Shown here one piece after another: positions 12,511-64,000 of a stretch of 64,000 bases of DNA; position 1 is the stretch's first letter, and every line of letters begins with the position of its first letter. Below the pieces are notes generated by a model. That model ran no database searches, was not told the origin of the DNA, and worked only from the letters and a program-made list of their open reading frames with translations. Location: the NCBI GenBank assembly GCA_034421575.1, contig DAOUKG010000049.1, positions 31,928 to 95,927 of the forward strand. Direction: 5' to 3'. Source of the DNA: Dehalococcoidia bacterium (lineage in GTDB: Bacteria > Chloroflexota > Dehalococcoidia > Lucifugimonadales > VXLM01). The position numbers and the translations under genes were made by a program.

Positions 12511-12713
12511 CCTCATCCCCGTATCGAGTACGGGGCGGGCTCTACGCCGGAATGACGGGTTAGGGATACTGTGTCACGTGGTTTGCGGTGTAATCACAAC
12601 GCCATTGGCATAGGTCTCGATTCTCAGGCCTCTTATCCAGTCCCTGATACCCCGCATCACCCCAAAAAACATGAGCCTCCCCACCGTGCAGCAATCGAGG
12701 CGTTTGTGTCACG

Positions 12714-13631
12714 TCATGCACGTTCTGGCGGTTGCCGAACGCGTACGGCATAAGCTATCAGGATTACCAAAACGAGCGAGAGGATCCAGATCATGATCCC
12801 GAGTACGGGGGGAACGAACTCGGTTACTTCGAGATCGTGACCAGCCCAGATCCGCAGAGTTATGTAGACCGGCAACAACCCGCTCATCCCGAACAGCGTG
12901 AGGATCGTTTCCCTATATGAGCCACAGGCGGGGTCAAAGCGTGGCAACACCTGACTCGTGAAGCGGTCAATTGCGTCGCTGAATACAGCGACATTCAAAG
13001 AGCCCCCCCGGTGCTTGAAGTCAGTCTCCTGCGGCCCGCCAGCCATATCAAGCCGAGACAGCACCCAAACAGCGAAAAGCGTTACCAAGAGGGTAATGAC
13101 AACCAAATCCCAAGCGACCGGCCCGCCTACAAACCTAGCAAAGACGAGGTTCGGCATGAGCAAACCTAAACCATTGAAGACGGTTGCCAACCCTATTAGC
13201 ACGAGTGCGTGATTGAAGCTGGTTGTGGACGCCTGTCTCGCGAACCAAACCAGTATCGCGTTTGATGCAAGAAATGTTCCCAAACTCCACCACGATGCTG
13301 AAACTACCGACGATTGTTCAATATCCGCCACGTCAAGGACCAGATAGTCAACAGTGGCGACGGCTTCGTATACGAACGCAAAGCCCCACAACAGAGACAG
13401 GGTAGTCCTCCCCAAGCGACGTACACGGAAGTAGAGGATGCCTAGAAGTACCAGCGAGACGTTTAGAAGCGGCGCTGTATATGAAGGGGAAGAATCAACG
13501 TCGAAGGTGATGTTGAAATTGCCGAAAACATGAGTGAGAAGCCACCAACTCGTTTGTTCAACGAGCGTGATGCCTATGAAAAGCATCAGTTCCCATCGAT
13601 ATCGTGATGCTAAATGAGTCAGTGTCGCCAT
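12714..13631 (-). CDS. hypothetical multi-pass membrane protein (paralog A)
   Basis: 305 aa with about 8 hydrophobic segments. The N-terminus MATLTHLASRYRWELML and the C-terminus AYAVRVRQPPER are shared with 13781..14725. Confidence 0.65.
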   Translation of the reverse strand: MATLTHLASRYRWELMLFIGITLVEQTSWWLLTHVFGNFNITFDVDSSPSYTAPLLNVSLVLLGILYFRVRRLGRTTLSLLWGFAFVYEAVATVDYLVLDVADIEQSSVVSASWWSLGTFLASNAILVWFARQASTTSFNHALVLIGLATVFNGLGLLMPNLVFARFVGGPVAWDLVVITLLVTLFAVWVLSRLDMAGGPQETDFKHRGGSLNVAVFSDAIDRFTSQVLPRFDPACGSYRETILTLFGMSGLLPVYITLRIWAGHDLEVTEFVPPVLGIMIWILSLVLVILIAYAVRVRQPPERA

Positions 13632-13780
13632 TCTCGGCTTCCTCTTACGGCCCTATCACCCGCGTCGGCCCGCTAGTGATACCACCCTTCGCCTGCGATG
13701 TACAGGCGCGTGCCACCTTCGCTGCCGCTTCCGGAGATACAGGTTCTTCCCGGAAAGCGTCTGCTGTGCACGAGCAAGGT

Positions 13781-14725
13781 CTAAGCTGTTGCCGACGGTT
13801 CGATTGTCCCCGGTCGTTCCGGCGGCTGACGAACACGTACCGCGTAGGCGAGGCCTATGATCAAAGCTGTCTCGACTGCCCACCACAAAAGCTGAATTGC
13901 CGAGAACGCGAAGACATCAGTGAGTTCCGGACCTTCGCCAATCCAGGGTCCGAATTTTGAGCCGACACGCAGTAGACAGCTCAGACTCAACAGGGCGATG
14001 ATCACCTCTTTGTACCTGCCTCGATCGGGGTCAAATCTCGGCAAAACTCGGCTCATCAAGAATTTCACCGTGCCTCCGAAAAAGGAGACGTCCCTGGGGG
14101 CGCTACGTTTGGCGGCAGTAACGTCTGAATCGTCAACACTGTGAAGCCGCGTCAACACCCACAACGCGAAGAGCTTCAGTACGGCATTGAGAATGGCGGT
14201 CTCCCAGGAGAATATCCAGCCGTCCAGTGTGGGGAAAGGAACGAAAGGTATGAGGATGCCCGAGCCATTGAGGGCTGTCGACAGGGCTATAAGCAGGAGT
14301 GCGTGGTTGAAGCTGAACCTTGACGCCAGTCTTGCGAACCAGACCAACACGATGATTGATACCAGTAACTCTACACCCGTCCACCAAAATGACCAAACCA
14401 CAAACAACTGCACTACCTCATCGATCATCACGCTAAAGAATAGATCGACTATCATGCTGGATACTGCGAATACCAACACGTAGGCCCACGCCAAGGTCAG
14501 CATGGATCTGCCTAAGGCACGTACATGGAAGTAGAAGATGGCCAGCAGAATCGGCTGGACGATCGAGAGTAGCCCTAAAGCGAGTGTGCTGGCGTCAAGT
14601 AAGGCGTCGAGTGCGATCAGAGGGACAATCAGCAATAGCCCGATCACGCCCGACACGAACGGGATGACAAGGACCAGCATCAGTTCCCATCGATAGCGTG
14701 ATGCTAAATGAGTGAGTGTCGCCAT
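13781..14725 (-). CDS. hypothetical multi-pass membrane protein (paralog B)
   Basis: 314 aa with the same termini and topology as paralog A. AAGAGGAAG lies upstream of the ATG in both copies. Confidence 0.65.
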   Translation of the reverse strand: MATLTHLASRYRWELMLVLVIPFVSGVIGLLLIVPLIALDALLDASTLALGLLSIVQPILLAIFYFHVRALGRSMLTLAWAYVLVFAVSSMIVDLFFSVMIDEVVQLFVVWSFWWTGVELLVSIIVLVWFARLASRFSFNHALLLIALSTALNGSGILIPFVPFPTLDGWIFSWETAILNAVLKLFALWVLTRLHSVDDSDVTAAKRSAPRDVSFFGGTVKFLMSRVLPRFDPDRGRYKEVIIALLSLSCLLRVGSKFGPWIGEGPELTDVFAFSAIQLLWWAVETALIIGLAYAVRVRQPPERPGTIEPSATA

Positions 14726-15013
14726 TCTCGGCTTCCTCTTACGGCCCTATCGTTCGCGTCGGTCCGCTAGTGATATCACCCTTCGCCTGTTATGTACAGG
14801 CGCCGTGGTGAGTGCTCAGAGTTCATAGGGTGAACATCCCCCACCCCTATGGATACCCGCCCCGTATTGTGGTACGGGGTGACGGTATGACGGTGGCTGT
14901 GTGCGTTGATCGCTCTCACCGATTCTGAATAGTTAGGTACCGTGCATCCGAGTTTGACACCCTGCATCCCATCTGAGAGCATACTTCAAACCTACGGGAG
15001 GCTCGCTATAGCC

Positions 15014-16273
15014 ATGCCCAAGCCGATCAGCCACGTCGTTCGCCGACCGGGGCCGCGTCCCGGAGACCCCGATGTCGAGATTCCCGTCGCCGAAGACCTC
15101 GTGACCGTGCCCGGCCACCCGGTGCGCGAGGCCGACATTTCCTTCTACGCCCGCGAGGAGCCGCTGGAGCAGTGGCACATGGAGAAGGGGGCCGACCGCG
15201 ACTGGGCTTGGACGGTCTACTCCGACGAGTTCTCCGAGTTCCGCAAGGAGCATGACAGCACTGTCAGGCCGCTCGTGGCGGAGTCGAGAGAGACCGCCGA
15301 AATCGAGCCGACGGGCGAGCCGGATGACACCATCGACGTGACCGAGACGATTCGCGCCAAGGGGAAGGAGCTCGGATTCGGCGAGGTGGGGTTCACCCGG
15401 TACGACAGGCGGTACACGTACAAGAGCAAGAAGGGCTGGGTGAAGTTCAACAACGCCATCTGCCTCGCGTGGGAGCAGGACTACGACGCGACCCAGTCTA
15501 CGATCAGCATGGCGGCGGAGCACGCGCACTATGGCGCGTACGAGGTCATGGGCGAGGCGGGCCTGCGGCTCGGCGACTTCATCCGCACCCTCGGCTACCG
15601 CGCCCAAGTACACAACCCGAACGACGCGAGCGCGCCGACCATCCCGTATTTCGTCAACGCGGGACTTGGGCAGCTCGGGGCAAACGGGCAGTTGCTGATG
15701 CCGCACTTCGGGTCGCGCGCGCGGCTCATGATGATCACCACCGACGCGCCCGTGCGCCACGACGAGCCGGTCGACTACGGCATCAACAAGTTCTGCGACA
15801 AGTGCCAGGTCTGCGTCCAGCGGTGTCCGGCGCGGGCGCTCGTGCGCGAAAAAGTGTGGTGGCGCGGCGCACTCAAGAACAAGGTCATCTACGACCGCTG
15901 CCGTCCCCTGATGGTCAAGCTGGACGGGTGCGGCGTCTGCATGAAGGTCTGCCCCGTGCAGAAGTACGGCATGAAGCCGGTCATGGAGCACTACGTCGAG
16001 ACCGGCGAGGTGCTCGGCAAGGGGACAGACGACCTCGAAGGGTTCCCGGTGCCCGACGGCCGGTACTTCGGCTCCGGCGAGCTTCCTCACTTCGACCGCG
16101 AGTTCTTCGACTTCCCGCACGGCACCCGCGAGCAGTGGCTATTCGAGCAGCTCAAGGAGCGAATGGACGCCGGCGAAGAGGTGACGGAAGAGGAGTTGGC
16201 CGAGTTCGCCGAGCAGGTCAGGGAAGCCGTCGGTCAGACCAAGCAGGGCTGGGGCAGCACGACGGACGATTAG
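15014..16273 (+). CDS. reductive dehalogenase / epoxyqueuosine reductase (QueG)-like iron-sulfur protein, cytoplasmic type
   Basis: NAGLGQLGANGQLLMPHFGSRARLMMITTDAPVRHDEPVDYGINKFCDKCQVCVQRCPARAL plus a second cluster (CGVCMKVCPVQ) matches the RdhA/QueG core followed by 2x[4Fe-4S]. There is no twin-arginine signal. The ATG at 15014 is preceded by GGGAGG. Confidence 0.65.
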   Translation: MPKPISHVVRRPGPRPGDPDVEIPVAEDLVTVPGHPVREADISFYAREEPLEQWHMEKGADRDWAWTVYSDEFSEFRKEHDSTVRPLVAESRETAEIEPTGEPDDTIDVTETIRAKGKELGFGEVGFTRYDRRYTYKSKKGWVKFNNAICLAWEQDYDATQSTISMAAEHAHYGAYEVMGEAGLRLGDFIRTLGYRAQVHNPNDASAPTIPYFVNAGLGQLGANGQLLMPHFGSRARLMMITTDAPVRHDEPVDYGINKFCDKCQVCVQRCPARALVREKVWWRGALKNKVIYDRCRPLMVKLDGCGVCMKVCPVQKYGMKPVMEHYVETGEVLGKGTDDLEGFPVPDGRYFGSGELPHFDREFFDFPHGTREQWLFEQLKERMDAGEEVTEEELAEFAEQVREAVGQTKQGWGSTTDD

Positions 16274-16534
16274 GGGGTGTGTGCGTCGGTCCGTTCGCGC
16301 TGAGCAGCGTTGCGCCCACACGCCCTTCGACAGGCTCAGGCCGAACGTACTTTCTCGTGGTTGCACGGCAGTTACTGACACCCCTGCACGGCCGCGATCG
16401 GCCTGAGTTTGTCGAAGGGCCAATGCACAGGTGTGTATACGAGAGTATAGGCTGCCAGATATACACCCCTTGTATTCCCAGAATACTGGGGTATTATGGA
16501 AATGGACGTTCCGAGTACCCCCGGACCGTATCAC

Positions 16535-16567
16535 CTGCGAAGCCTGCGGCTTCGCAGTTTTGTTTTT
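16535..16567 (+). terminator. rho-independent terminator
   Basis: CTGCGAAGCC-TGC-GGCTTCGCAG, a perfect 10-bp stem, is followed by TTTTGTTTTT. Confidence 0.7.
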
Positions 16568-58443: not shown

Positions 58444-59242
58444 CCACACCCTCACGGACCGCGTCGACCGGGCAATCGACGAGTTTCCCATCTATGCAGG
58501 CGGAGAACGCTTCGAGGCCGAAGGCGCCGTCTTCGTAAGACACCGCTCCATACCCGACACGTACTACGCAAACCGCGTCGAGCAAGTGACCGCCTCGACG
58601 CCGGAAGAGATCGCCCGTCTGAGCGAGCGCGTCGAGGTTGAGTTTGAGGAATTTCGACACCGTTACTACTACGTCGATCGCGATACGCCGGTGGAGTTTG
58701 AGGCGTGGCTGCTCATGGAGGGCTACCAGCGCACCGACTCTCTCGTGATGGTGCTGACCGGCGAACTGCGCGGCGCGTCAAAGCCCTACGAAATTCGCCT
58801 CGTCGAGACCGACGCAGACTGGGAGGCTTACCACGATCTCATAGCCACTGCCGACCGGGAGTCCGACCGCAGCACGCCCCCACGCACCGCCAACGACAAC
58901 GCCTCGGAAGCGCAAGCCCAACGAATAGCCACCCTTCAGTCCATCTCCCCACCCGTGCGGTACTGGCTCGCATACACTGAAGGAGCACCGAGGGCATTCT
59001 TCTCGTCATGGACGAGTAGTGACGGCATAGGGGTTCTCGACGACCTCTACACCCACCCCGACTATCGCCGTCGGGGCCTCGCGACCGCTCTCGTTCACCA
59101 CTGCGTGGCCGATGTCCGGGCAAGAGGCGCTGGCCCCGTCGCGCTCGAAACCGACCCCGCGGAAACCCCAAAGCACATGTACGCCGCCATGGGGTTTCGC
59201 CCGCTATCCCTATCCCACGAGTACCTGAAGACCTTCGAGTAA
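58436..59242 (+). CDS. GNAT family N-acetyltransferase
   Basis: DLYTHPDYRRRGLATALVHHCVADVRARG (acetyl-CoA binding motif A) and MYAAMGFRP. Confidence 0.8.
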   Translation: MTSHTLTDRVDRAIDEFPIYAGGERFEAEGAVFVRHRSIPDTYYANRVEQVTASTPEEIARLSERVEVEFEEFRHRYYYVDRDTPVEFEAWLLMEGYQRTDSLVMVLTGELRGASKPYEIRLVETDADWEAYHDLIATADRESDRSTPPRTANDNASEAQAQRIATLQSISPPVRYWLAYTEGAPRAFFSSWTSSDGIGVLDDLYTHPDYRRRGLATALVHHCVADVRARGAGPVALETDPAETPKHMYAAMGFRPLSLSHEYLKTFE

Positions 59243-59405
59243 GTCGGTCTCGCTGAATCCGTAACCGCTTCGGGAAGCAAGCCCGTCGTAGGGGCAACCC
59301 TCGTGGTTGCCCTTCCCCGTCGCCAATACATCGTCATTCCCGCGAAAGAACGTCACCCCGTACACGATACGGGGCGGGAATCCAGCACCCAGCACCTAGA
59401 ACCTG

Positions 59406-60197
59406 TCACCAGATACTCCACCCGCCGTCGACGATCAGATTGTGTCCAGTAATCCACGATCCCGCAGGCGACGCCAGCAGCGCCACCGCCCCCTTGAGGT
59501 CCTCCGCCACACCGGTCCGTCCAAGAGCGTTGGCCTGTCGCGCCCGCTCGACCATGATCGGATCGGCAGTCGGCCCTGGTATCTGGCCTGGACTGATGCA
59601 GTTGGCCGTGATGCCTGAGTCCCCAAGCTCCATCGCGAGATAGCGCGTGAAGTTGATGATGCCGCCCTTTGCCGTCTGGTAGGCCGCCCCGCCTCGCTTG
59701 AATCCCGTCCCATCGTAGAAGCGCTTATCGTTCGTCAGCGACCCGTGAATCGAGCCAATCGTGATGATCGACCCCGATCCCTGCTTCACCATCACCTTCG
59801 CGGCCTCATTCGCGCACAGGTACGCGCTCGTCACATTCATTTCCAGCGTCGCCATGAACTCCGAAACGTCGCCGTCCGGGATGTACGTCGGCTCCGCCGC
59901 TCCCCCGCCCGCGTTGCACACCATCACGTCCAGCCGTCCGTGCCGTTGGACAATGGCATCGACCATCACGGCGACCTCGTCAGCATCCGTCGCGTCGCAC
60001 CCCATCCCCTCCACCTTCAGCCCCTCAGCCGACATCTCCGCCGCGACCTGCTCGCAAAGCTCCCTGCGTCTACTCGCGATGATTACCGTCGCTCCAAGCT
60101 CGGCCAGCGCCGTCGCCATCGCGCGACCAAGATGCGTCCCGCCGCCGGTTACGACGGCAACGCGACCCGTCATATCGAACTGTTCAGTAATATTCAT
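59406..60197 (-). CDS. SDR family oxidoreductase
   Basis: GRVAVVTGGGTHLGRAMA, NAGG and the YQTAKGG catalytic motif. The ATG is at 60197; an alternative GTG lies at 60212. Confidence 0.9.
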   Translation of the reverse strand: MNITEQFDMTGRVAVVTGGGTHLGRAMATALAELGATVIIASRRRELCEQVAAEMSAEGLKVEGMGCDATDADEVAVMVDAIVQRHGRLDVMVCNAGGGAAEPTYIPDGDVSEFMATLEMNVTSAYLCANEAAKVMVKQGSGSIITIGSIHGSLTNDKRFYDGTGFKRGGAAYQTAKGGIINFTRYLAMELGDSGITANCISPGQIPGPTADPIMVERARQANALGRTGVAEDLKGAVALLASPAGSWITGHNLIVDGGWSIW

Positions 60198-60199
60198 AG

Positions 60200-60430
60200 C
60201 TAGAACGAGCACCCAATTCCATTCTTTCCGATCTGCACCTCGTCGCCGTCCACGTACACCGGCGTTATCCGGTCGCCGTCCGTCAGCGCCAAAAGCTCAG
60301 GAATCCGCTCCGGTTGTTGAAACAGGTCAACCTCCTCGTACTCCACACCGTCCCTCCGAAGCTCCCGCTTCAGGTCGGTCGTATACCCGCATCCGGGGTA
60401 CGTGTAGAGGATCGGTTTCGTCTGTGTCAT
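60200..60430 (-). CDS. glutaredoxin-like small protein with single N-terminal Cys (PGCGYT) and C-terminal GCSF-stop
   Basis: 76 aa. ILYTYPGCGYTTDLKRELRRDGVEYEEVDL...TPVYVDGDEVQIG is a glutaredoxin/NrdH-like fold. A Cys lies three residues from the C-terminus. Confidence 0.6.
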   Translation of the reverse strand: MTQTKPILYTYPGCGYTTDLKRELRRDGVEYEEVDLFQQPERIPELLALTDGDRITPVYVDGDEVQIGKNGIGCSF

Positions 60431-60452
60431 CCTTGTGCCTCTAATGCGTATT

Positions 60453-61094
60453 CTAACCCGCTATTCCCGGCCTGACTATCGGTGTTCCCGACTCGATGGC
60501 GCAAAGAAGTTCCTCCACAGCGTGACAGAGACGACGGAACGAACGAGAACGACGCTGCGTGTGTTCGATGTCGATGAACGTTGATAGCGACGCTTGGTCG
60601 CTCGTCTCTGTGTATGCTCGTCCATGTGGCATAGCTCGCTTTAGCCAAGCCTTGGCATGGACGTCTTCCACATTTCCCTGATACGACTCTGTCTCGTCTA
60701 TTCCAAGCCTCGTCCTAATCTCCATTCCTTGTTGGGAGTCCAAACTCGCTAAGAACCATGTTTCGTGTTCTCTATTCGCCTCTACGATAGTGACGGATTT
60801 CGCCAAGTTGAGGTCTTTCGTTCGTTTGACAAGGTTACCGACCTCTTCGACGGGACATTCGTCGTCGGCATCCAAGAGAACGAGAATTCCGGCGCACGAT
60901 GGCTCAATAGATGCGTACCGGACGAATTTCTCATAGTCCTTAATTAAGTTCTTTTTGCCTTTGGCCCTCTTTGGGCTTTCGACTGTAATGTCGTACCTCG
61001 TAAAATGCTCCCACAATATTCTTCTTAGCAGCGTAGGGACAGCTTTGCTGTCTCCGAAACCTTCTACCACCGGCACAATGCTCCGTGGGGTCAT
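60453..61094 (-). CDS. DUF4276 / Toprim-like (OLD-nuclease-type) protein
   Basis: IVPVVEGFGDSKAV, ILVLLDADDECP and NREHETWFLASL resemble the acidic Toprim-type blocks of DUF4276 proteins. Its start overlaps the upstream ATPase stop (ATGA). The region is AT-rich. Confidence 0.6.
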   Translation of the reverse strand: MTPRSIVPVVEGFGDSKAVPTLLRRILWEHFTRYDITVESPKRAKGKKNLIKDYEKFVRYASIEPSCAGILVLLDADDECPVEEVGNLVKRTKDLNLAKSVTIVEANREHETWFLASLDSQQGMEIRTRLGIDETESYQGNVEDVHAKAWLKRAMPHGRAYTETSDQASLSTFIDIEHTQRRSRSFRRLCHAVEELLCAIESGTPIVRPGIAG

Positions 61095-62380
61095 GTCCGC
61101 ACTCCGGCGAGTCGCAGACCTTCCATGCTGTGAAGCTCGCCAGTGGTAAAGAGTCCTTGCTTGACCGCTTCAGCCTGCGTCTCGGAAACCTCCCCGACCT
61201 TCGTCTCTCCGTCCATGAACTCGACTGCCCGGATGCAGTCAACGGGAAATCGGTCGATGAGGTCCGGGCTGTGCGTCGTAATGACGACCTGTTGCCGCAA
61301 GGACGCTTCCTCCAATATCTCGGCGAGCGCGGTCAGAACTCCGGGATGGACTGCCGACTCAGGCTCCTCGATTCCAAGAAGGGAAGGCCTGCCTAGCTGG
61401 TAGATCGCAGTCAATAAGGCTAGCATCCTCAATGTGCCATCCGATTCTTGAGCAGCGTTGAACCATTGGTTCTGGCCGGGAACTATATTCGAGTGCTTGA
61501 ACTGCAACACAAGATATTCACCCACCGGCTCTGACTTGACATCGGTTATCCCCGGCATTAAATGCTTCAAGGCATCTCTAAGTTCTCTGAAACCCTGAGA
61601 CGTGAGTTCTTCGGGACCTTCTACTGTTCCGTTATTGCGCCGCATCCGCCACAACACGGACGCAAGGTTCGATCCGTATTCATCAAGAAGACTTGGCCCA
61701 GAGTTTTTCTCAAGCCCTCGGAGCGTATCGGGTGAAACACGGTAAAACCCCAGGCTGGATAACGCTCGTTGCAGTTCAAGAAGGCTTCGATGCAGTCTTT
61801 CAAGAGAAAATTGCGCCCCTGCATTGTGGGCGAAACTCGCATAAGCGACGTTCGAATAATACTTGAAGAACAGTAAGTCTTCTGAGGGTAAGGGGCTTGG
61901 AGCACTAGAGCCAGAAGCATATACCCCTCTAAGGTAGGCGGACACAGTCTCGGGTTCTATTACTTGACGATCTTGGATGTCGAAGGCAATTTCCCCCGAG
62001 TCGGTAGCAAGTTGATAGCTGCCGTACTCACGTTTGACTAGGCCGTTGCCATTCGGATCATTTGTTAGGACGAAATTGTAGTCAAGGGTGAGGTCTCGGA
62101 TAGTTGCCGTAAACCCGATCTCTGCGTCGCAATTCGACAGATGCTGAATGACCCACATTCCATGTCGTTGTGAAATTGCGTAGCCCAGCCCACGCGACAC
62201 GGCGTCCCTGATGAACCTGAGTACATCTAACACGTTGCTCTTCCCGGACGCATTCGGCCCCACGAGCACAGTTAGCGGACCCAACTCCATGTCAAGCTCG
62301 CGGATGGAGCGGTAGTTCTTCGCACGTATGCGGGTGATGCGGAACCCGCTGTTGTCAATAGCGCTGTCGTTCATACTCAT
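61091..62380 (-). CDS. ABC/SMC-like AAA ATPase (AAA_15/AAA_21 type)
   Basis: Walker A VLVGPNASGKSNVL, signature-like ESDGTLRMLALL, Walker B SLLGIEEPESAVHP and H-loop VVITTHSPDLI. RBS AAGGTGAAG. Confidence 0.8.
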   Translation of the reverse strand: MSMNDSAIDNSGFRITRIRAKNYRSIRELDMELGPLTVLVGPNASGKSNVLDVLRFIRDAVSRGLGYAISQRHGMWVIQHLSNCDAEIGFTATIRDLTLDYNFVLTNDPNGNGLVKREYGSYQLATDSGEIAFDIQDRQVIEPETVSAYLRGVYASGSSAPSPLPSEDLLFFKYYSNVAYASFAHNAGAQFSLERLHRSLLELQRALSSLGFYRVSPDTLRGLEKNSGPSLLDEYGSNLASVLWRMRRNNGTVEGPEELTSQGFRELRDALKHLMPGITDVKSEPVGEYLVLQFKHSNIVPGQNQWFNAAQESDGTLRMLALLTAIYQLGRPSLLGIEEPESAVHPGVLTALAEILEEASLRQQVVITTHSPDLIDRFPVDCIRAVEFMDGETKVGEVSETQAEAVKQGLFTTGELHSMEGLRLAGVRT

Positions 62381-62463
62381 AGCTTCACCTTGCAGGATAA
62401 GTCTATCACGCCCACCGATATGATAAGGTATCCCCCTAGCGAGACGACTACGGGGCCGTGTGC

Positions 62464-63855
62464 ATGAACGTCATCTGGATAGTTGCCGACACCTTTCGAC
62501 AGGACCACCTCGGCGCATACGGCAAGAAGCCCATCCTGACCCCCTCGCTCGACGCTCTGGCCGCCAGGTCCACCCTCTTCACGAGACACTACGCCGCCGG
62601 ATTCCCGACCATGCCCACCCGCGCCGACCACGCGCTCGGTCGCTGGACGATGTCCTTCATGGGCTGGGAGCCGCTGCCCGACGATGCCACGACCCTCGCC
62701 GAGATCCTCGCCTCCAACGGCTACCACACCGCCGCTATGGTCGACACGCCCTTCTACCTGCGCGGCGGCATGAACTACGACAAGGGTTTCCAGACCTTCT
62801 CCATGTACACAGGGCAGGAGGGCTCGGTAACCCGTCTCCTGACGCACCACCACCACGAGTCCCGCGACGCCCGTGAGGCATGGCGCTTCGAGGCCGACCG
62901 CAACGTCGCCCAGACCGTCACGCGGGCCATGCAGTGGCTCCAGCTTCACTACACCGAGGACTTCTTCCTCTACATCGACACGTGGGACCCCCACGAGCCA
63001 TGGGACGCCCCCACGTACTACTCCCGCCTCTATATGCCCGACCACGACGGCGAGGTGGTGCAACCTCCCTACGGCTTCTGGCAGGAGGCCCCCGGCTACA
63101 CCGAGGAGAAGGTCGCCAAGGCGCGGGCCGCCTATGCGGGCGAGGTCACGATGGTCGATACGTGGATCGGCTACCTCCTCCGCATGGTCGAAAACATGGG
63201 CCTCACCGACGATACCGCCATCATTTTCACCTCCGACCACGGCTTCTACTTCGGCGAGCATGGCGGCCTGTTCGGCAAGATGACCTTCGCCAAGCGCCCC
63301 GACGGAACCATGTTCCAACACGGCGACCCCGGTTCCGCATGGACATTCTCGCCCCTCTACGAGGAGACTACCTCGATTCCCCTGATCGTCCATGTGCCCG
63401 GATCGGAGCCCAGCGTCTACAACGGCCTGACTTCCGCCATCGACGTGATGCCGACCGTCCTTGAAGTCCTCGGTCAGGACATTCCCGGATGGGTGGAGGG
63501 CAAGTCGCTTCTTCCCAAGGTCCGGGACACGGCCACACCCGGACGCGAGTTCACGGTGACCACCGTCCCCTTCGCCGATCCCGGCGATCCCGTGCGCTCC
63601 GTCGACAACTTCCGGCGCAAGCTGGAGAGCAGTCTTGTGACCACCGTCTCCACCGACGAGTGGGTGCTGCTCTACTCCACCGATGAGGGCATGTCCCAGC
63701 TCTACCATCTCCCAACCGATCCCGGACAGGAGCGCAACGTCATCGCCGACAATCCCGACGTCGCGCGAGGCGTCCATCAGCACCTCGTCAAGTTCATGCA
63801 CGACACCAACCTGCCCGAACGCCGTATTCAACCAAGACTCGAACTCAGAATGTAA
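62464..63855 (+). CDS. sulfatase-family (alkaline phosphatase superfamily) hydrolase with Thr at the formylglycine position
   Basis: NVIWIVADTFRQDHLGAYG, HYAAGFPTMPTRAD (T-M-P-T-R instead of C/S-x-P-x-R) and FTSDHGFYFGEHG. Confidence 0.8.
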   Translation: MNVIWIVADTFRQDHLGAYGKKPILTPSLDALAARSTLFTRHYAAGFPTMPTRADHALGRWTMSFMGWEPLPDDATTLAEILASNGYHTAAMVDTPFYLRGGMNYDKGFQTFSMYTGQEGSVTRLLTHHHHESRDAREAWRFEADRNVAQTVTRAMQWLQLHYTEDFFLYIDTWDPHEPWDAPTYYSRLYMPDHDGEVVQPPYGFWQEAPGYTEEKVAKARAAYAGEVTMVDTWIGYLLRMVENMGLTDDTAIIFTSDHGFYFGEHGGLFGKMTFAKRPDGTMFQHGDPGSAWTFSPLYEETTSIPLIVHVPGSEPSVYNGLTSAIDVMPTVLEVLGQDIPGWVEGKSLLPKVRDTATPGREFTVTTVPFADPGDPVRSVDNFRRKLESSLVTTVSTDEWVLLYSTDEGMSQLYHLPTDPGQERNVIADNPDVARGVHQHLVKFMHDTNLPERRIQPRLELRM

Positions 63856-63874
63856 GTTTGGAGGAACCGCCACT

Positions 63875-64000
63875 ATGAAAAAACGCCAGGATAAACTCGT
63901 GGGGCCGGTCGTATCCCTGCCCACGTTCGTCGACGACGACCATAACCTCCTCCTCGACAGGCAGGCCAAACACATCCGCTGGCTCATGGACCACGGCATC
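63875..64000 (+). CDS. dihydrodipicolinate synthase family protein, N-terminal fragment (runs off the right edge)
   Basis: The ATG at 63875 lies 10 nt after GGAGG. MKKRQDKLVGPVVSLPTFVDDDHNLLLDRQAKHIRWLMDHGI resembles the DHDPS/NAL family N-terminus. Confidence 0.45.
   Translation, partial: MKKRQDKLVGPVVSLPTFVDDDHNLLLDRQAKHIRWLMDHGI

What the first reader, a model, noticed from the sequence alone, without database searches (positions are those of the whole stretch)
60453..62380. AT-rich two-gene islet: ABC-type AAA ATPase translationally coupled to a DUF4276/Toprim-like protein (split OLD-like, candidate anti-phage module)
Between a glutaredoxin-like gene and a sulfatase-family gene lies a stretch of about 2 kb that is visibly more AT-rich than the flanks.

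It encodes a 429-aa ATPase with Walker A (GPNASGKS), an ABC-signature-like SDGTLR, Walker B (LLGIEEPE) and an H-loop (TTHSPD). Its stop overlaps (ATGA) the start of a 213-aa protein with acidic VEG...DADD...E.W blocks that I recognise as DUF4276/Toprim-like.

ATPase + Toprim is the domain logic of OLD-family nucleases. The same logic underlies the Gabija GajA and PARIS AriA/AriB defence proteins, here split over two genes.

I do not know of an experimentally characterised system that uses DUF4276 as the nuclease partner. That makes this a plausible uncharacterised defence pair.
Basis: partly seen in the sequence, partly recalled or inferred. Interest (0 to 1): 0.65.

Follow-up and report, generated by a model that had tools for sequence, protein, structure and literature searches.

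The report
HEC-01 ATPase–Toprim defence-candidate gene pair
This is a real two-gene module, an ABC-type ATPase plus a small DUF4276 nuclease-like protein, that belongs to an already catalogued candidate anti-phage system called HEC-01; here it sits at a fixed chromosomal site in Dehalococcoidia, where its variable parts have been swapped between lineages.

Summary
Genes of 429 aa and 213 aa lie on the minus strand with an ATGA stop/start overlap, all quoted motifs are present, and this is the lowest-GC stretch of the window.

The domain reading is right: A is an AAA_21/AAA_15 ABC ATPase and B is DUF4276. The novelty claim is not. PADLOC models identify the pair as HEC-01 (A 7.9e-86, B 3.8e-46). 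HEC-01 is a published candidate that gave no defence in one E. coli test and protected in another study. DUF4276 is also Mad4 of the characterised MADS system.

New findings:
- An A-type ATPase sits directly upstream of B in 79 of 79 informative loci.
- The pair has lower GC than its flanks in 67 of 68 loci.
- In ten related Dehalococcoidia genomes it occupies the same site (sulfatase | A-B-Grx-SDR), and no empty site was found.
- A's central insert (six allele types) and B's core (three types) have been exchanged independently, while the flanks stay 79–97% identical.
- Both genes are under purifying selection.
- Neighbours in Chloroflexota are mostly housekeeping genes. On one Streptomyces plasmid the same subtype lies next to Gabija.

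Most likely it is an ATPase-controlled Toprim nuclease acting in phage defence. It is a new member of a known kind.

The parts
62381..62457 (.). 77-bp intergenic region between the divergently transcribed sulfatase gene and gene A. It is the presumed promoter region of the module. An AGGTG Shine-Dalgarno-like motif lies 5 nt before A's ATG.
   Evidence: Sequence read. DNA identity here stays 82-90% in all eight syntenic genomes whatever A/B allele they carry. No sigma-70-like site was found in it by the consensus scan.
61091..62380 (-). Gene A (HEC-01A): 429-aa ABC-type (SMC/Rad50/OLD-like) ATPase.
   Evidence: PADLOC HEC-01A PDLC04178 7.9e-86 over residues 11-423. Pfam AAA_21 2.7e-33 and AAA_15 1.7e-19. 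AlphaFold model pLDDT 84.5. Foldseek top hits are PtuA, SMC, Rad50 and RecN heads at E 1e-14 to 1e-12. dN/dS 0.15-0.22.
62237..62260 (-). Walker A / P-loop GPNASGKS (aa 41-48) of A.
   Evidence: Residues G41, N43, A44, S45, G46, K47 and S48 are invariant in 30 homologs. Codons read.
61541..62143 (-). Hypervariable central insert of A (aa ~80-280): a beta-rich subdomain plus helices between Walker A and the signature motif. Proposed trigger-sensing/specificity region.
   Evidence: DNA identity drops to 40-68% here in L003, L085, L007 and L008 while the flanks stay 84-96%. There are six allele types among ten syntenic genomes. Within the same allele type dN/dS is 0.23-0.35, against 0.04-0.16 for the ATPase halves. 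Alignment indels concentrate here.
61262..61450 (-). C-terminal ATPase motifs of A: signature-like QESDGT (aa 311-316), Walker B LLGIEEPE (334-341) and H-loop TTHSPD (368-373).
   Evidence: Q311, E312, S313, G315, T316, G336, E338, E339, P340, T368, T369, H370, S371 and P372 are invariant in 30 homologs.
61091..61094 (-). ATGA stop/start overlap coupling A to B. A GGAG lies 7 nt upstream of B's ATG.
   Evidence: Read. Across 79 loci the A-stop/B-start distance is -4 nt in 22 loci and at most 19 nt in 78.
60453..61094 (-). Gene B (HEC-01B): 213-aa DUF4276 protein. It has a predicted Toprim-like alpha/beta core (aa 1-120) and a helical C-terminal domain (123-202).
   Evidence: PADLOC HEC-01B PDLC04196 3.8e-46. 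Pfam DUF4276 4.3e-10. AlphaFold pLDDT 93.4, pTM 0.90. dN/dS 0.10-0.12. Best viral-structure hit is an RloB-like protein, E 2.6e-4.
60762..61064 (-). Putative metal-binding catalytic residues of B: E11 (61064-61062) right after strand 1, D75-A-D77 (60872-60864) at the end of strand 3, and E111 (60764-60762) after strand 4.
   Evidence: D75 is invariant and E11 and E111 are at least 90% conserved in 125 representatives at 50% identity. D77 is invariant in the closer 25.
60510..60548 (-). Highly conserved C-terminal helix motif of B, SRSFRRLCHAVEE (aa 183-195). Candidate interface with A or with nucleic acid (inference).
   Evidence: S183, R184, S185, F186, R188, C190, H191, A192 and E194 are invariant in 25 homologs. 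DNA identity recovers to 72-78% here even where the rest of B is ~50%.
60431..60452 (-). 22-nt spacer between B's stop and the start of the glutaredoxin-like gene. The downstream Grx (60200-60430) and SDR (59406-60197) genes are conserved flank, not part of the module.
   Evidence: The spacing is 20-21 nt in L001, L002, L003, L084 and L085. Grx is absent from the 74 non-syntenic loci. Grx and SDR give no PADLOC hit.

Best explanation
The islet is a complete, intact member of the HEC-01 candidate defence system: a translationally coupled ABC-type ATPase (A) and a small DUF4276/Toprim-type metal-dependent nuclease (B).

Most likely mechanism, inferred by analogy with PARIS, OLD/Gabija, Septu and MADS Mad3-Mad4:
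- A forms ATP-dependent oligomers that bind B and hold it in check.
- A's hypervariable central insert recognises a phage-derived (or other invader-derived) trigger.
- ATP binding or hydrolysis then releases or activates B.
- B uses its E11/D75/D77/E111 acidic site to cut nucleic acid (DNA or tRNA; the substrate is unknown) and so stop the infection.

Shown here:
- family identity, intact ATPase and acidic motifs, and the ABC fold of A;
- strict A-to-B gene order and coupling, and purifying selection on both genes;
- persistently low GC compared with the flanks;
- independent replacement of A's insert and B's core at one fixed chromosomal site.

Inferred, not shown: complex formation, nuclease activity, the trigger, the substrate and the anti-phage phenotype.
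For: Family identity:
- PADLOC HEC-01A 7.9e-86 and HEC-01B 3.8e-46, both full length.
- Pfam AAA_21, AAA_15 and DUF4276 above threshold.
- A's model matches the nuclease-partnered ABC ATPase PtuA and SMC/Rad50 heads at E ~1e-14. Its closest solved sequences are OLD, GajA and PtuA.
- All ATPase motifs are invariant in 30 homologs.

Toprim-type active site in B:
- E11 follows strand 1 and D75xD77 ends strand 3, the Toprim arrangement.
- Recurrent sub-threshold hits to OLD-like_TOPRIM (9/25 and 12/125 members) and RloB (9/125).
- The top viral fold hit is RloB-like.
- The literature places DUF4276 in the Toprim superfamily with the metal site conserved.

Obligate pairing: A lies directly upstream of B in 79/79 informative loci with tight junctions.

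Arms-race-like evolution:
- Six A-insert and three B-core allele types in at least six combinations at one site with 79-97% identical flanks.
- In L003 the pair's dS is 1.7-2.0 against ~0.5 in the flanks.
- Insert dN/dS is about 3 times that of the ATPase halves.
- GC is below the flanks in 67/68 loci, p = 8e-13.

Defence links:
- The same sub-models sit next to a complete Gabija and a Fic toxin on plasmid NZ_CP107915.1.
- One locus is adjacent to HmaC (E = 0) and others to a type IV REase, PD-T4-2 and PycTM.
- The pair is also on a phage-like contig.
- One HEC-01 representative protected E. coli B.
- mad3 and mad4 are required for MADS defence.
Against: - The HEC-01 representative tested by its discoverers gave no protection against any phage tried. 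The positive report is a single spot-assay result on a different homolog.
- In Chloroflexota the immediate neighbours are housekeeping genes with no recurrent defence or mobile partner. Only about 6-8 of 279 nearby genes have specific defence hits, and no background rate was measured.
- No empty site, tRNA, flanking repeat or integrase marks the islet as mobile.
- The pair is co-directional and nearly contiguous with Grx-SDR.
- B has no significant match to any solved Toprim structure in Foldseek's top 50, no PDB sequence hit, and an insignificant hhalign score against a GajA Toprim.
- dN/dS never exceeds 1.
- No expression data could be obtained.
Confidence: 0.6

Rival explanations
1. A conflict module that is not primarily anti-phage. 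One option is a toxin-antitoxin-like or addiction pair in which B is a toxic nuclease neutralised by A. Another is a system aimed at plasmids or other mobile DNA, or at competing cells.
For: - The architecture is the same as in the best explanation, so apply equally.
- The pair persists at a fixed site with no empty site found, as expected if loss is costly.
- It is associated with TA genes in some loci: Fic on NZ_CP107915.1, RHH/PIN in L171 and HicA in L166.
- One HEC-01 gave no phage phenotype.
Against: - ABC ATPase plus nuclease pairs that have been characterised (PARIS, Septu, Gabija, MADS) act against phages.
- A hypervariable sensor-like insert is not expected of a simple antitoxin.
- One homolog did reduce plaquing.
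Confidence: 0.15
2. A housekeeping DNA-repair or RNA-processing ATPase-nuclease of Dehalococcoidia, comparable to RecF/RecN/SbcCD-type ABC ATPases or RNase M5-type Toprim enzymes. It would be inherited vertically and possibly co-expressed with the Grx-SDR genes.
For: - Same syntenic site in 10 of 10 related genomes, with no empty site.
- Neighbours are housekeeping genes.
- Purifying selection comparable to the flanks.
- Rare on phages (1 of 50,697 records) and plasmids (3 of 72,556).
- Weak RecF/SMC/Rad50 hits for A.
Against: - Allelic replacement of the insert and the nuclease core at 25-60% identity between genomes whose flanks are about 90% identical is not how housekeeping genes evolve.
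- GC3 is 0.56-0.59 against 0.75-0.85, and the GC deficit is family-wide.
- Distribution is patchy: 310 pattern-confirmed loci among 185,579 species genomes. Some genomes have two copies (L018/L058, L061/L062).
- Grx linkage is absent outside the closest lineages.
- The strongest HMM matches are defence-system models, while RecF and SMC scores are far below their cutoffs.
Confidence: 0.1
3. An orphaned or inactive remnant of a larger system such as MADS or Hma, or a decaying horizontally acquired islet with no current function.
For: - HEC-01 was discovered embedded in Hma systems and Mad3-Mad4 act within the eight-gene MADS. Here no helicase or DNA methylase is adjacent.
- Anomalous composition.
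- In one lineage the A gene is split into two ORFs.
Against: - Both ORFs are intact with every catalytic motif present.
- dN/dS is 0.10-0.22.
- The stand-alone two-gene arrangement is the rule in 79/79 loci.
- The source paper required candidates to occur outside Hma as well.
- The MAD3 equivalog score is 108.8 against a cutoff of 420.
Confidence: 0.05

Closest known systems
HEC-01 (Hma-embedded candidate 01; PADLOC-DB v2; Payne et al., bioRxiv 10.1101/2024.01.29.577857)
   Same: - Both proteins match the HEC-01A and HEC-01B models over their full length (7.9e-86 and 3.8e-46).
- It has the same two-gene A-to-B architecture: an ABC ATPase plus a TOPRIM-like DUF4276 protein.
[quoted passage not shown]
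   Different: - It is not embedded in an Hma system here.
- It lies at a conserved chromosomal site in Dehalococcoidia with cassette-like allele turnover, which the papers I read do not describe.
- The tested representatives are different homologs with conflicting phenotypes.
MADS Mad3-Mad4 (methylation-associated defence system, Pseudomonas aeruginosa)
   Same: - An AAA15/21-type ABC ATPase paired with a DUF4276 protein.
- A hits PADLOC mad3 at 5e-28 and NCBIfam MAD3 at 3.4e-31.
- mad3 and mad4 are each needed for defence.
   Different: - MADS has eight genes, with a methyltransferase and mandatory Mad6-8. None of these is near this pair.
- A scores 108.8 bits against the MAD3 equivalog cutoff of 420.
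- B gave no hit to any mad4 model at E <= 0.1.
PARIS (AriA ABC ATPase + AriB Toprim nuclease)
   Same: - A split two-gene ATPase + Toprim-type effector logic.
- A hits a PADLOC AriA model at 3.1e-33.
- It is placed in the same AAA15/21 tree of ATPase-powered defence systems as the DUF4276 pairs.
- It is the best mechanistic template: the ATPase scaffold releases the nuclease on sensing a trigger.
   Different: - AriB is DUF4435, and B has no DUF4435 hit.
- AriA and AriB coevolve and are rarely swapped. Here A inserts and B cores recombine independently.
- PARIS is often carried by phages and satellites. This family is almost absent from phage and plasmid collections.
OLD-family nucleases and Gabija GajA
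   Same: - ABC ATPase plus Toprim domain logic.
- The closest solved sequences to A's N-terminus are OLD (6p74, 5e-10) and GajA.
- There are sub-threshold OLD-like_TOPRIM hits in the B family.
   Different: - In OLD and GajA the two domains are fused in one polypeptide of about 570-680 aa, and Gabija adds the GajB helicase. Here they are two genes with no helicase.
- The window's B itself does not reach the OLD-like_TOPRIM model.
Septu / retron-Septu PtuA-PtuB
   Same: - PtuA gives the best structural matches to A (E 1e-14, TM 0.4-0.5).
- It is also an ABC ATPase partnered with a separate small nuclease.
   Different: - PtuB is an HNH nuclease, not Toprim/DUF4276.
- NCBIfam PtuA scores 38.7 bits against a cutoff of 500.
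RloA-RloB / AbiL (AbiLi-AbiLii) pairs
   Same: - An AAA_21-type ATPase with a small Toprim-related partner.
- The best viral structural hit of B is an RloB-like protein.
- Nine of 125 B-family members weakly hit Pfam RloB.
- A hits AbiLi at 2.5e-30.
   Different: - B is assigned to DUF4276, not RloB.
- All these matches are sub-threshold or much weaker than the HEC-01 models.

Membership tests
HEC-01 (PADLOC candidate system) | Protein matching a HEC-01A (ABC ATPase) model | tested here: met
   PDLC04178 7.9e-86, residues 11-423 on profile positions 5-381 of 399.
HEC-01 (PADLOC candidate system) | Protein matching a HEC-01B (DUF4276/TOPRIM) model | tested here: met
   PDLC04196 3.8e-46, residues 1-197 on profile positions 1-192 of 197.
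HEC-01 (PADLOC candidate system) | The two genes are adjacent and on the same strand | tested here: met
   4-nt ATGA overlap. The same arrangement holds in 79/79 informative homologous loci.
HEC-01 (PADLOC candidate system) | Anti-phage activity | not testable with these tools
   The literature conflicts: no defence and protection by one homolog.
Pfam DUF4276 (PF14103) | Score above the gathering threshold over the whole domain | tested here: met
   40.6 bits against 30.2, profile positions 1-192 of 192. 125 of 125 family representatives also match.
Toprim superfamily | Conserved Glu after strand 1 and a DxD motif after strand 3 of an alpha/beta core | tested here: met
   E11 follows strand 4-10. 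D75-A-D77 ends strand 67-75. D75 is invariant and E11 is at least 90% conserved in 125 representatives.
Toprim superfamily | Significant fold or profile similarity to an established Toprim domain | tested here: inconclusive
   - No Toprim in the top 50 Foldseek PDB hits; best E 4e-3, TM at most 0.40.
- hhalign against a GajA Toprim gives probability below 1%.
- Sub-threshold Pfam OLD-like_TOPRIM in 9/25 and 12/125 members and RloB in 9/125.
- BFVD top hit is RloB-like, E 2.6e-4.
- Published structural comparisons claim Toprim.
ABC ATPase (SMC/Rad50/OLD-like clade) | Walker A, signature motif, Walker B and H-loop, plus the ABC head fold | tested here: met
   The motifs are invariant in 30 homologs. 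Foldseek matches PtuA, SMC, Rad50 and RecN heads at E 1e-14 to 1e-12.
OLD-family nuclease (classes 1-2) / Gabija GajA | ATPase and Toprim fused in one polypeptide, with a GajB helicase partner for Gabija | tested here: not met
   There are two separate genes. The adjacent genes are sulfatase and glutaredoxin, with no helicase.
PARIS (AriA/AriB) | Effector of the DUF4435 (AriB) family | tested here: not met
   No DUF4435 hit for B or for 25 and 125 family members even at permissive E-values. No AriB model appears among B's PADLOC hits.
MADS | MAD3 equivalog score, and presence of the mandatory Mad6-8 and the methyltransferase | tested here: not met
   NF047739 scores 108.8 bits against a cutoff of 420. 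The neighbours are sulfatase, Grx, SDR, GNAT and RidA.
Septu (PtuA/PtuB) | PtuA equivalog plus an HNH partner PtuB | tested here: not met
   NF041760 scores 38.7 bits against a cutoff of 500. The partner is DUF4276, not HNH.

The most novel reading that the evidence does not exclude
In this Dehalococcoidia lineage, HEC-01 would be a long-resident, chromosomally fixed immune locus that diversifies by cassette exchange. The ATPase's central insert (sensor) and the nuclease's catalytic core would be replaced independently by recombination, anchored in the conserved ATPase halves and B's C-terminus. This would imply that A and B recognise each other through their conserved termini, so that specificity (A insert) and effector type (B core) are freely re-assortable. 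That contrasts with PARIS, where AriA and AriB coevolve. The natural chimeras (window, L084, L003, L085, L007, L008, L086) would then be a ready-made panel for mapping trigger specificity in ABC-ATPase defence systems.
Probability: 0.35. Interest if true: 0.55.

Novelty: new member of a known kind. Interest (0 to 1): 0.35.

Why it matters
HEC-01 is common (the B family alone has about 3,100 clusters at 50% identity). Its mechanism is unknown and its defence role rests on conflicting evidence. This locus does not change what kind of system it is.

It does add useful evolutionary evidence that the family behaves like an immunity locus. The A-B pairing is strict. The foreign-looking composition persists across the family. 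At one conserved chromosomal site, the ATPase insert and the nuclease core have been replaced independently and repeatedly.

That points to the insert as the specificity determinant. It also supplies natural chimeras for experiments. Finally, it shows that defence candidates in poorly studied, uncultured Chloroflexota can sit as solitary islets among core genes, where defence-island methods would miss them.

Tried and rejected
- Foldseek of the high-confidence B model against PDB gave only generic Rossmann-like noise and no Toprim.
- A profile search of the B family against PDB sequences gave 0 hits.
- hhalign of the B profiles against one GajA Toprim domain was insignificant. The template had a single sequence, so the test had low power.
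- I looked for marks of a mobile insertion. There are no tRNA genes in the window and only short chance-level direct or inverted repeats around the islet. No integrase or transposase is adjacent. No terminator-like sites were found, and promoter-like sites were not above the shuffle expectation.
- I searched for an empty site using the sulfatase as anchor in metagenome contigs. Only one further syntenic locus turned up (L086) and it is occupied. The other 79 sulfatase relatives lack the Grx neighbourhood altogether.
- I considered and rejected functional linkage to the downstream Grx-SDR genes. Grx is absent from the 74 non-syntenic loci.
- Rfam found nothing in 59000-64000.
- A literature search on 'Mad4' returned only unrelated papers.
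- No later paper in the library characterises or renames HEC-01.
Full report
**1. Observation.** The stretch 60453-62380 holds two minus-strand ORFs. A is 61091..62380 (429 aa) and B is 60453..61094 (213 aa). The stop of A (TGA 61093-61091) overlaps the start of B (ATG 61094-61092), and a GGAG lies 7 nt upstream of that start. The flanking genes are a glutaredoxin-family gene (4.4e-09) and a sulfatase (5.1e-39). The GC dip is real and not a chance fluctuation. The islet has GC 0.527 against a window mean of 0.606, the lowest of any same-size stretch in the window. GC3 is 0.59 and 0.56 for A and B against 0.75-0.85 for the neighbours. A is separated from the divergent sulfatase gene by 77 bp.

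**2. What the proteins are.** A matches Pfam AAA_21 (2.7e-33) and AAA_15 (1.7e-19). B matches DUF4276 end to end (40.6 bits against a cutoff of 30.2). Against PADLOC, A hits HEC-01A (PDLC04178, 7.9e-86) and B hits HEC-01B (PDLC04196, 3.8e-46), both over their full length. These scores are far above those for AriA, AbiLi, mad3, NsnB, GajA or Old. NCBIfam offers only sub-cutoff matches (MAD3 108.8 bits against 420; PtuA 38.7 against 500) and nothing for B.

In a 30-sequence alignment, A's Walker A, QESDGT signature, Walker B and H-loop residues are invariant, as is part of a C-terminal tail LFTxGELHSMEGL. Indels and substitutions concentrate between residues ~80 and ~300. The AlphaFold model of A (pLDDT 84.5) matches PtuA of Septu and retron-Septu and the SMC/Rad50/RecN heads at E 1e-14 to 1e-12. 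By sequence, the nearest solved proteins are an OLD nuclease, GajA and PtuA, over the P-loop region only. A is therefore an ABC-type ATPase of the kind that partners nucleases in defence systems.

**3. Is B a Toprim nuclease?** The B model is very confident (pLDDT 93.4, pTM 0.90). It has a strand-helix-strand core followed by a helical C-terminal domain. E11 sits directly after strand 1, D75-A-D77 ends strand 3, and E111 follows strand 4. This is the Toprim arrangement described in PMC12065111. D75 is invariant and E11 and E111 are at least 90% conserved in 125 representatives at 50% identity.

Independent tests gave mixed results:
- Foldseek against PDB returned no significant hit and no Toprim in the top 50.
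- A profile search of PDB sequences returned nothing.
- hhalign against one GajA Toprim was insignificant, although it aligned the two VEG motifs.
- The commonest secondary Pfam matches across family members are DUF3226 (15/25, 34/125), OLD-like_TOPRIM (9/25, best 5.7e-4; 12/125) and RloB (9/125); Glycos_transf_2 also recurs (10/25, 8/125).
- The best viral fold hit is an RloB-like protein (E 2.6e-4).

Two papers report structural similarity to Toprim with the metal site conserved. I accept Toprim-type as likely. I record the fold test as inconclusive here.

**4. What is already known.** HEC-01 is one of nine 'Hma-embedded candidates' of Payne et al. (bioRxiv 10.1101/2024.01.29.577857). It is described there as an ABC ATPase plus a TOPRIM protein. 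The representative tested in E. coli protected against none of the phages tried. [quoted passage not shown] A cold-seep study (bioRxiv 10.1101/2024.09.26.614923) reports that one HEC-01 representative protected E. coli B against at least one of T4, T5 and T7. DUF4276 is also Mad4 of MADS. The PARIS paper lists MADS3-4 and AbiL among ABC ATPase + TOPRIM systems. In MADS, mad3 and mad4 are each required for defence, and mad5 could be deleted only together with mad2 or mad3. I found no later paper that characterises or renames HEC-01.

**5. Conservation of the pair.** B has 209 word-indexed homologs and A has 1,380. An exhaustive profile search finds 3,111 clusters at 50% identity (1,917 at E <= 1e-10); the 150 best hits listed are all small proteins of about 110-280 aa. 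A pattern-based scan of 185,579 species genomes confirmed 310 loci. About 62 of the best 80 are Chloroflexota, mostly Dehalococcoidia, and the rest are spread over Acidobacteriota, Verrucomicrobiota, Armatimonadota, Desulfobacterota and others. In 79 of 79 informative loci an A-type ATPase ends just upstream of B on the same strand. The junction is a 4-nt overlap in 22 loci and at most 19 nt in 78. In that count the start nearest to A's stop was chosen, which favours short gaps. In 67 of 68 loci the pair has lower GC than its flanks (mean -7.0 points, Wilcoxon p = 8e-13). The compositional anomaly is thus a property of the family, not of this genome.

**6. The locus in its own lineage.** Nine other genomes or contigs (L001/L004, L005, L002/L006, L003, L084, L085, L007, L008, L086) carry the pair at the same site: sulfatase divergent from A, then B, Grx and SDR. 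The genomes with a record title are Dehalococcoidia MAGs of 1.8-4.4 Mb. I found no genome in which sulfatase and Grx are neighbours without the pair between them, although only ten such genomes were available. No tRNA gene, integrase or meaningful flanking repeat marks an insertion.

A sliding DNA comparison shows flanks at 84-96% identity in all eight loci compared. Two segments vary independently: A's centre (window ~62150-61550) and the first ~170 codons of B (~61100-60600). Segment by segment, the A insert falls into six allele types and the B core into three, in at least six combinations:

| Genome(s) | A insert type | B core type |
|---|---|---|
| window, L001, L005, L002 | a | a |
| L084 | a | b |
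| L003 | b | a |
| L085 | c | b |
| L007 | d | b |
| L008 | e | b |
| L086 | f | c |

A's N- and C-terminal ATPase halves stay at or above 70% identity in the nine closest genomes, and B's C-terminus does so in all ten.

In L003, synonymous divergence is 1.7-2.0 at the pair against ~0.5 in the flanks, so those alleles are older than the split of the host lineages. For L084's B core, dS was too saturated to compute. Both genes are under purifying selection (dN/dS 0.15-0.22 for A and 0.10-0.12 for B, against 0.05-0.21 for the flanks). Within one allele type the A insert evolves about three times faster at nonsynonymous sites than the ATPase halves (0.23-0.35 against 0.04-0.16). This pattern fits a long-resident locus whose specificity parts are exchanged by recombination, as expected of an immunity gene. 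It does not fit a housekeeping enzyme.

**7. Neighbourhoods.** I called genes crudely (greedy longest-ORF) in 74 non-syntenic loci.
- The nearest neighbour on each side (144 proteins) showed no recurrent family. The PADLOC matches listed (top 25 of 54 models) were all to generic IscS-like and ThiF-like enzymes.
- The second neighbours (135 proteins) included single strong hits to HmaC (E = 0), a type IV restriction enzyme (4e-99), PD-T4-2_B, PDC-S03, DUF499 and PycTM.
- Two fully annotated distant loci (L166, L171) are surrounded by housekeeping genes, with only scattered toxin-antitoxin genes 8-9 kb away.

Relatives of B are very rare in phage records (1 of 50,697) and plasmid records (3 of 72,556). 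On Streptomyces plasmid NZ_CP107915.1, however, the same HEC-01 sub-models (2.1e-118 and 6.2e-73) lie next to a Fic toxin gene and a complete Gabija (GajA 5.7e-189, GajB 1.4e-176). On NZ_CP108307.1 the pair is flanked by IS elements and conjugation genes. The phage-like contig carries the full pair. The defence or mobile association is thus occasional rather than general. Without a background rate I cannot call it enrichment.

**8. Mechanism and verdict.** The best-supported reading is an ATPase-controlled Toprim-type nuclease module of the HEC-01 family acting in defence against phages or other invaders. The variable insert of A would be the sensor and B the effector.
- Family membership is near certain.
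- The defence role is probable but unproven, about 0.6-0.7.
- The detailed mechanism (sequestration and release as in PARIS, or a regulated DNA nuclease as in OLD, Gabija and MADS) and the substrate are inferred only.

Rival readings are a toxin-antitoxin-like or non-phage conflict module, a housekeeping ATPase-nuclease, and a remnant of a larger system. They are less likely for the reasons given under each. The finding is a new member of a known kind. Its added value is the evolutionary picture at this locus, not a new type of system.

Noticed in passing
window 12600-15000: This is the second lowest-GC patch of the window (~0.54). It has two same-strand ORFs, 12714..13631 (-) 305 aa and 13781..14725 (-) 314 aa, that hit no Pfam family (E <= 1e-3) and no PADLOC model (E <= 1e-5). 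It may be another foreign or lineage-specific islet.
   Followed up: partly
window 60450-60478 (- strand): A sigma-70-like site (TAGTCA-17 nt-TAGAAT) lies inside the last codons of B, just upstream of the Grx start. The B-stop to Grx-start spacing is a constant 20-22 nt in six syntenic genomes. B's 3' end stays 72-78% identical at the DNA level even between divergent alleles. The Grx-SDR genes may therefore depend on a promoter embedded in B or on read-through from A-B.
   Followed up: no
L167-L170 (e.g. L167:2871-4157): In the lineage carrying B homolog P0117 (about 20 contigs from several samples), the A gene is called as two ORFs of 155 aa (P-loop half) and 227 aa (AAA_21 half) separated by ~135 nt. 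It is either a naturally split ATPase or a recurrent disruption of the insert region.
   Followed up: no
L018 and L058 (both OZ253476.1); L061 and L062 (same Desulfotomaculum MAG): Some genomes carry two separate HEC-01 pairs at different chromosomal positions.
   Followed up: no
L172 (NZ_CP107915.1 331497-339477): On this Streptomyces plasmid a compact defence cluster holds a Fic toxin gene, a HEC-01 pair and a complete Gabija (GajA/GajB) within 8 kb. An 850-aa protein with no PADLOC hit lies just downstream.
   Followed up: partly
L001:4497-4951 and L002:4686-5140: A small two-gene cassette (an 84-aa ParE-like protein plus a 66-aa partner) sits between the MPAB and DHDPS genes in two of the syntenic genomes. 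It is absent from L003, L084 and L085, so it is a toxin-antitoxin indel about 4 kb from the HEC-01 site. L001 also has an IS66 transposase (15473-16537) inserted between the two methyltransferase genes.
   Followed up: no
B family (alignments A1, A4): The commonest secondary Pfam match of B-family members is DUF3226 (15 of 25 members and 34 of 125 members; best 2.8e-6). This is more frequent than OLD-like_TOPRIM or RloB. I did not examine how DUF3226 relates to Toprim.
   Followed up: no
window 61541-62143 versus 62144-62380: Even among genomes that share the window's A-insert allele, synonymous divergence is lower in the insert (0.27-0.46) than in A's N-terminal 79 codons (0.97-1.13). This suggests further recombination breakpoints inside gene A.
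   Followed up: partly
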